Source: Escherichia coli | Lineage (GTDB): Bacteria > Pseudomonadota > Gammaproteobacteria > Enterobacterales > Enterobacteriaceae | Assembly: GCF_003334785.1 (NCBI RefSeq) | Contig: NZ_QOWV01000046.1 | Reading direction: 5' to 3' (one strand) | Length of the DNA: 4,468 nucleotides | Part shown: positions 490-900 of the stretch, in pieces | Layout of the letters: each line of letters begins with the position of its first letter | Position numbering within the stretch: the first letter of the stretch is position 1 | Translations under genes and position numbers: made by a program | Notes under the pieces: generated by a model | What the model was told of the DNA's origin: nothing | Databases searched by the model: none | Seen by the model: the letters and a program-made list of their open reading frames with translations, nothing else

Positions 490-900
490 TTAGATTTTAA
501 GTTTGTCCTGGGCTACAACGACAGGTTTTCCGGATGTGTCGATGACTCCTACCGTCGGTACGCCATTTTTGATTTCGAAGAACGGTTTGTTGCTACCTGA
601 GCACAGTTGATTGTCCCCGTATTCAATCATTTGTGCTTTCCCGGTTTTCAGGTTAACTACCGAGACAGTGTAGTCGTAGCACCAGGCACCACCACGTTCA
701 AGCACGAAAACATAGCTGTTATCTTTATAGTTGAACTGATTCTTTGTCTGGCAATTCATACCGTCAATTTCGGTACAGGAAAACGCTTCTGTAGTATTAA
801 CGTATTTGATGTTATTTGGCAGTTTTACTTGTTTCGCAGTAGCGAAGACAGAGAACAGAATAGTTACAGCAACGAGTAAAGTTTTGATAAAAGTTTTCAT
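490..900 (-). CDS. Small Sec-secreted protein of unknown function (136 aa, four Cys in mature part)
   Basis: ATG at 900-898 with AAGGAG Shine-Dalgarno 6 nt upstream (complement of 907-912). N-terminus MKTFIKTLLVAVTILFSVFATA-KQ is a classic signal peptide (basic n-region, hydrophobic core, A-x-A type cleavage site). Begins 15 bp after the stop of the upstream gene, so probably co-transcribed. A/T-rich codon usage. No family recognised. Confidence 0.7.
   Translation of the reverse strand: MKTFIKTLLVAVTILFSVFATAKQVKLPNNIKYVNTTEAFSCTEIDGMNCQTKNQFNYKDNSYVFVLERGGAWCYDYTVSVVNLKTGKAQMIEYGDNQLCSGSNKPFFEIKNGVPTVGVIDTSGKPVVVAQDKLKI

What the first reader, a model, noticed from the sequence alone, without database searches (positions are those of the whole stretch)
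490..900. Unrecognised secreted four-cysteine protein co-operonic with the Ivy-like gene
Seen in sequence: strong RBS, a clear signal peptide, four Cys in the mature part (suggesting two periplasmic disulfides), and only a 15-bp gap from the Ivy-like gene, with a shared terminator at 314-346. It contains SGS and KTGK motifs, faintly reminiscent of MliC/PliC-type lysozyme inhibitor signatures but in the wrong order, so I do not assign it. Inference: a tightly linked pair of small periplasmic proteins could be an inhibitor or immunity pair, or a binding partner of the Ivy-like protein.
Basis: inference. Interest (0 to 1): 0.45.

Follow-up and report, generated by a model that had tools for sequence, protein, structure and literature searches.

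The report
Jumbo-phage periplasmic four-cysteine protein in E. coli
The finding is a real, unannotated gene for a small exported four-cysteine protein that E. coli islands picked up, together with a true Ivy-fold neighbour, from a giant (jumbo) phage; its function is untested, but the best guess is that it binds or blocks a target in the periplasm.

Summary

Window 458-1411 is 78% identical in DNA to ~220-kb viral contigs related to Salmonella jumbo phage SPN3US. It runs from 7 nt upstream of the Ivy-like start, through both genes, into the first codons of a third gene.

The four-Cys protein is the counterpart of SPN3US gp182 (phrog_8968, function unknown). It is one of three tandem paralogous exported families (gp181, gp182, gp183) conserved in three jumbo-phage genera.

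No match was found in Pfam, NCBIfam, PADLOC or PDB sequences. The moderate-confidence model resembles only beta-propeller blades, not MliC/PliC.

The pair is adjacent in 2248 of 5426 complete E. coli genomes, and dN/dS is 0.12-0.31. Linkage with an Ivy-like gene recurs in Salmonella in the opposite order, but each gene also occurs alone, so they are not an obligate pair.

The function is inferred, not shown: a periplasmic binder or inhibitor, plausibly acting in superinfection exclusion.

The parts
490..900 (-). Gene for the 136-aa exported four-Cys protein, the counterpart of SPN3US gp182 (phrog_8968); RefSeq WP_000846713.1 'hypothetical protein'
   Evidence: ORF; annotation; phrog_8968 E 2.6e-45; phage homologues; dN/dS 0.12-0.31
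835..900 (-). Codons 1-22: Sec-type signal peptide, predicted cleavage ATA|KQ
   Evidence: n-, h- and A-x-A regions read from the translation; conserved in alignments A1 and A5. No signal-peptide predictor was available.
907..912 (-). Shine-Dalgarno sequence AAGGAG, 6 nt upstream of the ATG
   Evidence: Read from the sequence
916..1404 (-). Upstream gene: 162-aa exported Ivy-fold protein with a disulfide loop CKANTC in place of Ivy's CKPHDC. PGAP calls a longer 227-aa ORF, 916-1599.
458..1411 (.). Segment homologous in DNA (77.8% over 959 nt) to about 220-kb SPN3US-related viral contigs; this is the captured phage fragment
   Evidence: blastn of window against L014 4496-5444; the same block in IMG/VR contigs of 107-225 kb
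456..479 (-). Decayed 5' end of a third gene (gp183-like paralogue): RBS GGAG overlapping the four-Cys stop, then MRFSAHY*
   Evidence: Sequence. The homology to L014 runs about 23 nt into its 129-aa gene, which starts MRLICALL. The intact gene is seen in L006 and L014.
309..348 (-). Intrinsic terminator of the two-gene unit (stem 348..319, then a T-run); it lies in island DNA, not phage-derived DNA
   Evidence: The flank 1-400 matches islands L010 and L002 at 87-90% but does not match the phage contig.
1405..1599 (-). In-frame remnant (65 codons, with its own signal-peptide-like start) of a 180-aa exported protein gene that is intact in L010:5098-5640; a deletion fused it to the Ivy-like ORF
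   Evidence: Translations compared; sequence of the junction
1699..1715 (-). Terminator-like hairpin after the patatin gene remnant; it separates the pair from the upstream operon

Best explanation
Shown: window 490-900 (-) is a functional gene for a small exported protein with four conserved Cys, enough for two periplasmic disulfides. The protein belongs to the jumbo-phage family typified by SPN3US gp182 (phrog_8968). It is one of three tandem paralogous exported families (gp181, gp182, gp183) in a gene block conserved across the genera Seoulvirus, Erskinevirus and Machinavirus. In a related lineage of about 220-kb phages, an Ivy-fold protein replaces gp181. A roughly 0.95-kb piece of that lineage's block (Ivy-like gene, four-Cys gene, and the first codons of the gp183-like gene) sits in a CP4-44-type island of E. 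coli, just upstream of the DUF932/antirestriction/RadC/CbeA-CbtA module. It is kept under purifying selection in about 41% of complete E. coli genomes. Inferred: after Sec export, signal-peptide cleavage and disulfide formation, the protein acts in the periplasm as a stable all-beta binding or inhibitor protein. It works alongside the Ivy-fold neighbour rather than as its obligate partner. The most likely role is superinfection exclusion or envelope protection: blocking a cell-wall-degrading or envelope-penetrating component of incoming phage, as T4 Spackle blocks the gp5 tail lysozyme. The islands would have co-opted this as phage defence. The target is unknown.
For: Gene reality and export. 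Family: phrog_8968 E 2.6e-45; tblastn hits in 40 jumbo-phage records. Conserved synteny gp180-gp181-gp182-gp183-gp184-gp185-SMC is seen in SPN3US, phiEaH2, pEa_SNUABM_29, Proteus phage 7 and Parshik. Paralogy: hhalign gp182 vs gp181 gives 96.9% probability, E 1.8e-10; gp182 vs gp183 gives 95.9%, E 6.3e-9; the PHROG families cross-hit. Phage origin: 77.8% DNA identity exactly over window 458-1411. The about 220-kb contigs are collinear with SPN3US and their SMC protein is 58% identical; IMG/VR classes them as viral. Neighbour is Ivy-fold. Recurrent but non-obligate linkage. Precedents from the literature: T4 Spackle is a periplasmic early protein that inhibits the gp5 lysozyme and gives superinfection exclusion (PMC7677548, PMC7650644); Ivy proteins inhibit lysozymes and, weakly or in vitro, lytic transglycosylases (PMC10139938).
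Confidence: 0.4

Rival explanations
1. Anti-lysozyme envelope defence against the animal host. Together with the Ivy-fold neighbour, the protein would inhibit vertebrate or invertebrate lysozymes that reach the periplasm, like Ivy, MliC/PliC, PliG and PliI.
For: The neighbour has an Ivy fold. Both proteins are periplasmic. The pair is common in commensal and pathogenic E. coli from animals. The known inhibitors are small periplasmic proteins (PMC2267010).
Confidence: 0.13
2. Dedicated partner of the Ivy-fold protein. The two would form a heterodimer, with the four-Cys protein acting as co-inhibitor, anti-inhibitor or chaperone of the Ivy-like protein.
For: The genes are 11-18 nt apart in E. 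coli and in the viral contigs. They are adjacent in 2248 of the 2290 E. coli genomes that carry the four-Cys gene at >=80% coverage. They are linked again in Salmonella in the opposite order. An inhibitor/anti-inhibitor pair that controls a lytic transglycosylase has been described in P. aeruginosa (title and abstract of bioRxiv 10.1101/2023.07.28.551027, listed).
Against: Each gene occurs without the other: Ivy-like alone in L009-L012 (protein P0070, 864 contigs) and four-Cys alone in L002. SPN3US-type phages have gp182 but no Ivy-like gene. In ST131 genomes the Ivy-like gene is 5'-truncated while the four-Cys gene is intact. The E. coli counts reflect few acquisition events, not independent trials. 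Co-folding could not be run.
Confidence: 0.12
3. Phage lysis-timing or envelope-remodelling accessory, such as an antiholin-like periplasmic sensor or a receptor or porin modifier. The chromosomal copies would be hitch-hiking cargo with no role for the bacterium.
For: The gene sits in a block of four or five exported or membrane proteins in lytic jumbo phages. In T4, periplasmic RI controls lysis inhibition (own knowledge; reviewed in PMC6832632). An SLT-domain protein is encoded a few kb downstream in the 222-kb element.
Against: Purifying selection holds between island copies (window vs L018, dN/dS 0.31). The gene is intact in 2290 genomes, while neighbouring island genes in this same window are deleted or frameshifted. 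Salmonella islands hold separately diverged copies.
Confidence: 0.15
4. Orphan immunity protein against a periplasm-acting interbacterial toxin, such as a type VI secretion (T6SS) peptidoglycan-hydrolase effector or a colicin-like toxin.
For: It is a small periplasmic protein on a mobile island, next to an Ivy-fold gene that could neutralise a muramidase effector. It lies in arrays of small exported proteins.
Against: No toxin gene is adjacent in any locus examined. The block's origin in a lytic phage fits poorly with interbacterial immunity.
Confidence: 0.08

Closest known systems
SPN3US gp182 (SPN3US_0182, AEP84015.1 / YP_009153476.1), phrog_8968, with orthologues in phiEaH2 (gp106), pEa_SNUABM_29 (00250) and Parshik (gp194)
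   Same: Same length (133-137 aa), signal peptide, four Cys, and motifs GGxxC and N-x-x-T-G-K. Same position between the gp181 slot and the gp183-like gene. Full-length profile match E 2.6e-45.
   Different: Only 29-36% identical to the cultured-phage proteins, against 76% to the protein of the about 220-kb uncultured lineage. Here the gene is chromosomal, in a CP4-44-type island, cut out of the block. The whole family has no known function.
SPN3US gp181 (phrog_17072) and gp183 (phrog_5248): the tandem paralogues
   Same: Homologous by profile comparison (E 1.8e-10 and 6.3e-9) with the same Cys framework; exported; adjacent genes.
   Different: They are distinct families. The window keeps only 7 codons of the gp183-like gene and has no gp181.
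T4 Spackle (gp61.3): periplasmic inhibitor of the gp5 tail lysozyme, giving superinfection exclusion
   Same: A small phage-encoded protein exported to the periplasm. This is the functional analogy proposed here. In the present locus the adjacent gene has the fold of a lysozyme inhibitor (PMC7677548, PMC7650644).
   Different: No sequence similarity: PDB sequence searches return nothing relevant. The predicted fold here is all-beta. No activity has been shown.
Ivy (PF08816; E. coli Ivy 1XS0/1GPQ, P. aeruginosa Ivy 1UUZ). This applies to the neighbouring gene, not to the four-Cys protein.
   Different: The four-Cys protein has no similarity to Ivy. The neighbour fails the Pfam and NCBIfam thresholds (E 0.004-0.19) and has CKANTC rather than CKPHDC.
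MliC/PliC (COG3895, PF09864) lysozyme inhibitors
   Same: Small periplasmic beta-rich proteins.

Membership tests
SPN3US gp182 family (phrog_8968) | Significant full-length match to the family profile | tested here: met
   phrog_8968 E 2.6e-45, residues 1-131 on profile positions 1-133 of 135. SPN3US gp182 itself scores 3.2e-58.
SPN3US gp182 family (phrog_8968) | N-terminal signal peptide plus four conserved Cys and the GGxxC / N-x-x-T-G-K core | tested here: met
   Alignments A1, A5 and g182
SPN3US gp182 family (phrog_8968) | Position in the conserved block, with the gp183-like gene immediately downstream | tested here: met
   DNA homology to L014 runs into the start of the gp183-like gene. 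The block is seen. In the window only a 7-codon remnant of that gene remains.
MliC/PliC lysozyme inhibitors (PF09864 / COG3895) | Match to the family profile | tested here: not met
   No Pfam hit for the protein or for any of 11 relatives. No NCBIfam hit.
MliC/PliC lysozyme inhibitors (PF09864 / COG3895) | Eight-stranded beta-barrel fold similar to solved MliC/PliC structures | tested here: not met
Ivy family (PF08816), asked of the four-Cys protein | Profile match or Ivy fold | tested here: not met
   No Pfam or PDB sequence match. The model is all-beta with no Ivy hit.
Ivy family (PF08816), asked of the neighbouring gene 916-1404 | Ivy three-dimensional fold | tested here: met
Ivy family (PF08816), asked of the neighbouring gene 916-1404 | Sequence match above the curated thresholds | tested here: not met
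   Pfam: no hit for the window protein; best family member E 0.004. NCBIfam 11.6 bits against a cut-off of 180. hhalign E 8.5e-4, probability 24%.
Ivy family (PF08816), asked of the neighbouring gene 916-1404 | Disulfide-bridged inhibitory loop CKPHDC with the active-site-plugging His (motif recalled from own knowledge of the Ivy literature; the E. coli Ivy sequence was checked) | tested here: inconclusive
   The loop C-x4-C aligns on CKPHDC. It reads CKANTC here, CKAHAC, CKSNAC or CKANAC in relatives, and CERGNC in Salmonella.
T4 Spackle-type superinfection-exclusion proteins | Homology to Spackle | tested here: not met
   No PDB-sequence match, whether searching with the single sequence or with the family profile.
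T4 Spackle-type superinfection-exclusion proteins | Inhibits a virion-borne cell-wall hydrolase and excludes superinfecting phage | not testable with these tools
   Needs plating-efficiency and enzyme-inhibition assays.
Known anti-phage defence systems (PADLOC-DB 2.0) | Match to any defence-protein model | tested here: not met
   No families for the four-Cys protein or for either form of the Ivy-like protein.
Beta-propeller repeat proteins (WD40/PD40-like blades) | Blade-like four-stranded meanders | tested here: inconclusive

The most novel reading that the evidence does not exclude
E. coli and Salmonella CP4-type islands have repeatedly taken pieces of a jumbo-phage 'periplasmic secretome' block (YfjT-like, gp180-like, Ivy-fold, gp182, gp183) and use them as a standing anti-phage exclusion barrier. 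In this reading the four-Cys domain is a previously undescribed inhibitor fold, about two beta-propeller-like blades stapled by two disulfides and possibly assembling into a ring. It would neutralise a virion enzyme or ejection component in the periplasm.
Probability: 0.2. Interest if true: 0.7.

Novelty: new variant of a known kind. Interest (0 to 1): 0.5.

Why it matters
About two in five complete E. coli genomes, including O157:H7, O111, UTI89-like and ST131 strains, carry this gene labelled only 'hypothetical protein'. This work gives it a home: the jumbo-phage gp182 family, with two tandem paralogues. It also gives a provenance (a captured fragment of an SPN3US-related phage) and a validated Ivy-fold companion.

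If the exclusion or inhibitor reading is right, it would add a new protein fold to the short list of periplasmic phage-exclusion factors. It would also show bacteria borrowing exclusion genes from lytic jumbo phages.

It further shows an Ivy-fold protein encoded in viral genomes. That bears on the open question of what Ivy-type inhibitors are really for: animal lysozymes, or peptidoglycan-cleaving enzymes met inside the periplasm.

Tried and rejected
**Family libraries**
- Pfam gave nothing, for the protein or for any of 11 relatives.
- NCBIfam gave only a sub-threshold hit to a JUQZ-type model, 15 bits against a cut-off of 40.
- PADLOC gave nothing.
- PDB sequence searches, with the single sequence and with the family profile, gave nothing.

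**MliC/PliC idea from the SGS and KTGK motifs**

**Fold searches of the four-Cys model**

**Rosetta-stone idea**
- The C-terminal Cys-rich domain of the Salmonella 312-aa Ivy-like protein aligns in register with all four Cys of the gp183 family.
- The match is not significant (hhalign E 0.02-0.27), so it stays a lead only.

**Ivy-like protein as a diverged gp181 paralogue**
- Rejected (hhalign E 0.004-0.17).

**gp180-like protein as a member of the superfamily**
- Rejected.

**Obligate heterodimer**
- Judged unlikely because each gene occurs alone.

**Literature**
- Searches by accession and by gp number found nothing.
- The SPN3US essential-gene and virion paper does not mention gp180-183.

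**Weak hits set aside**
- P0059, P0061 and P0062 in the representative search are repeat proteins with summed scores; they were not pursued.

**Not done**
- Co-folding of the two proteins was not run.

Full report
**1. Observation.**

The minus strand of window 490-900 holds a 136-aa ORF.
- AAGGAG lies at 912..907, 6 nt before the ATG, and the upstream ORF stops at 916-918, which leaves a 15-nt gap.
- The N-terminus, MKTFIKTLLVAVTILFSVFATA|KQ, has the n-, h- and A-x-A regions of a Sec signal peptide. There is no lipobox Cys.
- The mature part holds C42, C50, C74 and C100, with KTGK at residues 85-88 and SGS at 101-103.
- A 13-bp GC-rich hairpin followed by a T-run lies at 348..309 on the same strand. 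A second terminator-like hairpin at 1715..1699 follows the upstream patatin remnant, so the two small genes form their own unit.
- The gene is real. dN/dS is 0.12-0.31 in six comparisons, including island against island.
- RefSeq annotates it as WP_000846713.1 'hypothetical protein'.

**2. What the libraries say.**

Pfam, NCBIfam, PADLOC and PDB sequences give nothing for the four-Cys protein. PHROGs gives a full-length match to phrog_8968, a family of unknown function (E 2.6e-45).

A phmmer scan of 1.84 billion representative proteins found only fragments and close E. coli forms, two full-length distant relatives (34% identity), one aberrant K/N-rich translation (P0045) and a few repeat proteins. 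A profile search of 5.8 billion proteins found only E. coli, Salmonella enterica and jumbo-phage proteins, all unnamed or called 'secreted protein'. The family is therefore narrow and uncharacterised.

**3. Origin.**

tblastn against 50,697 phage records hits 40 jumbo phages of about 240 kb: SPN3US, SEGD1, the SPFM series, E. coli phages Lh1B and EC001, Proteus phage 7, and Erwinia phages phiEaH2, Asesino, Stratton, Parshik and pEa_SNUABM_29.

In SPN3US the hit is gp182 (SPN3US_0182, 136 aa). It sits in the order gp180-gp181-gp182-gp183-gp184-gp185-gp186(SMC). The same order is found in Erskinevirus and Machinavirus.

A closer relative, 76% identical in protein, lies in the following sequences:
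- contigs of 220-225 kb (L014-L016, L039-L041);
- the shorter contigs L006 (64 kb) and L038 (107 kb);
- a 222-kb circular Enterobacter ludwigii record filed as a plasmid.

These sequences are collinear with SPN3US, and their SMC protein is 58% identical to that of SPN3US. There the block reads YfjT-like, gp180-like, Ivy-like (160 aa), four-Cys (136 aa), gp183-like (129 aa).

blastn places the homology between the window and L014 exactly at window 458-1411, at 77.8% identity. That span runs from 7 nt before the Ivy-like ATG to about 23 nt into the gp183-like gene. The tiny ORF MRFSAHY* at 479..456, which follows a GGAG that overlaps the four-Cys stop codon, is the decayed start of that third gene. 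The terminator and everything below position 458 are island DNA. GC content drops to about 40% across the four-Cys gene, against 52-60% in the flanks.

**4. Paralogues.**

Local hhalign runs on small alignments give:
- gp182 family vs gp181 family: 96.9% probability, E 1.8e-10, entirely within the mature region;
- gp182 vs gp183: 95.9%, E 6.3e-9;
- gp183 vs gp181: 88.9%, E 2.4e-6;
- gp180: unrelated.

PHROG cross-hits agree with this. The finding is therefore one member of a three-family exported superfamily. The members share the framework F-W-C, 7-9 residues, C, about 20 residues, (G)G-x-x-C, about 25 residues, C.

**5. The neighbour.**

Its disulfide loop CKANTC aligns on Ivy's CKPHDC. The inhibitory His is missing here, and in relatives the loop varies: CKAHAC, CKSNAC, CKANAC, CERGNC.

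The protein is absent from every record in the phage collection. It is present in the uncultured lineage of about 220 kb.

PGAP's 227-aa version is a chimera. Codons 1-65 (window 1599-1405) are the N-terminus of a 180-aa exported protein that is intact in L010. A deletion fused them in frame to the Ivy-like ORF.

**6. Fold of the four-Cys protein.**

**7. Linkage.**

In complete E. coli genomes:
- the four-Cys gene is present at >=80% coverage in 2290 of 5426 genomes;
- the Ivy-like gene is present at >=80% coverage in 1934;
- the two-gene stretch is covered >=80% in one place in 2248.

These counts descend from few acquisition events, so they are not independent trials.

Independent evidence for linkage comes from two sources. 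The uncultured phage lineage has the same order and spacing. Salmonella islands carry a gp182-like gene (30-35% identical to the window protein, 43-46% to SPN3US gp182), followed 65 nt later by a 312-aa protein. The N-terminal half of that protein is homologous to the Ivy-like protein (E 7e-27).

Evidence against obligate pairing:
- L009-L012 have the Ivy-like gene with the four-Cys gene exactly missing; window 498-930 is absent between otherwise matching flanks.
- L002 has a divergent four-Cys gene after a GYF_2 membrane-protein gene and no Ivy-like gene.
- SPN3US-type phages have gp181 in the Ivy position.
- ST131 genomes keep the four-Cys gene but have a 5'-truncated Ivy-like gene.

**8. 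Mechanism (inferred).**

The sequence predicts Sec export, cleavage after A22 and two disulfides, giving a compact periplasmic beta-protein.

Its setting is a block of exported proteins in lytic jumbo phages, next to a lysozyme-inhibitor fold. Fragments of that block have been retained in mobile islands of two host genera. This fits best with a protein that binds something in the envelope.

The closest precedent is T4 Spackle, a periplasmic early protein that inhibits the tail lysozyme gp5 and excludes superinfecting phage (PMC7677548, PMC7650644). Ivy-type proteins inhibit lysozymes and, at least in vitro, lytic transglycosylases (PMC10139938).

My preferred reading is therefore a periplasmic exclusion or protection factor that works in parallel with the Ivy-fold protein, with confidence about 0.4. 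The rival readings are anti-host-lysozyme defence, a dedicated Ivy partner, a lysis-timing accessory, and orphan immunity against interbacterial toxins. None of these is excluded.

**9. Novelty and score.**

The gene family is catalogued (phrog_8968) but has no name, fold assignment, function or literature. The following appear to be new observations:
- the link between an E. coli 'hypothetical protein' present in about 41% of complete genomes and a jumbo-phage block;
- the three-paralogue structure of the family;
- an Ivy fold encoded in viral genomes.

The kind of system proposed, a phage-derived periplasmic inhibitor or exclusion protein, is already known. I rate this a new variant of a known kind, with interest 0.5.

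Noticed in passing
window 1405-1599 (-): The first 65 codons of PGAP's 227-aa ORF (WP_000775500.1) are the N-terminus, with its own signal-peptide-like start, of a different 180-aa exported protein that is intact in L010:5098-5640. A deletion fused it in frame to the Ivy-like gene, so the annotated protein is a chimera with two hydrophobic leader segments. The internal ATG at 1404 has only a weak, distant GGAAG upstream, whereas the phage copy has GGAG at 8 nt.
   Followed up: partly
window 456-479 (-): A seven-codon ORF, MRFSAHY*, follows a GGAG that overlaps the four-Cys stop codon. It is the decayed start of the gp183-like paralogue that follows the four-Cys gene in the jumbo-phage block.
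   Followed up: yes
window ~2401/2402: A 2.76-kb deletion relative to L010 (its positions 1537-4297) removes the C-terminal two-thirds of the dynamin-family gene, all of the RdcB/YjcZ-family gene and the N-terminus of the patatin gene. Only an N-terminal dynamin ORF (2375-3325) and a patatin remnant ending at 1735 are left.
   Followed up: partly
window ~4280 (gene 3543-4453, -): The YeeP/YkfA-like GTPase gene has a 1-nt deletion inside its P-loop (GKSGAGKS becomes GKSGPVN...), so it is a frameshifted pseudogene. The four-Cys gene nearby is intact.
   Followed up: yes
window 3383-3425: Three copies of AACGATCG, each containing the palindrome CGATCG, lie in the AT-rich spacer upstream of the dynamin-family gene. 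They may be an operator. No statistics or comparisons were run.
   Followed up: no
L023 (NZ_CP134650.1, Enterobacter ludwigii 'plasmid unnamed1', 222,441 bp): This circular record, filed as a non-mobilizable plasmid, carries the SPN3US-type block. It matches IMG/VR viral contigs of 220-225 kb, so it is probably a jumbo-phage genome rather than a plasmid. PLSDB's gene table omits its Ivy-like gene (L023:8502-8984).
   Followed up: partly
L004:8476-9414; L029:4477-5415; L033:4507-5445 (Salmonella enterica islands): A 312-aa exported protein with an Ivy-like N-terminal half, a Pro/Ala-rich linker and a Cys-rich C-terminal domain. The four Cys of that domain align in register with the gp183 family, but the similarity is not significant (E 0.02-0.27). 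It may be a fusion of the two domain types.
   Followed up: partly
L010:5818-5979 and L002:6788-7066: Other islands keep different scraps of the same phage block: the last 54 codons of the gp180-like gene upstream of the Ivy-like gene in L010, and the C-terminal part of a YfjT-like gene in L002. This suggests several captures, or one larger capture trimmed in different ways.
   Followed up: partly
L014:350-3478 (and the SPN3US genes upstream of gp180): Several consecutive phage proteins (185, 375 and 257 aa) end in a shared motif, GW(K/Y)xVxxxGxQLLF(L/V/I)A, which suggests another paralogous family in the jumbo phage.
   Followed up: no
protein P0045: A 152-aa database protein, 43% identical to the query, is extremely rich in K, N and T and has no Cys. 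It looks like a translation of damaged or base-converted reads of the same gene rather than a true homologue.
   Followed up: no
L018 compared with window and L014: There is mosaicism within the pair. The Ivy-like gene of L018 is closer to the phage copy (dN 0.076) than to the window copy (dN 0.20), while its four-Cys gene is closer to the window copy (dN 0.14 against 0.225). This implies recombination between island and phage versions.
   Followed up: no
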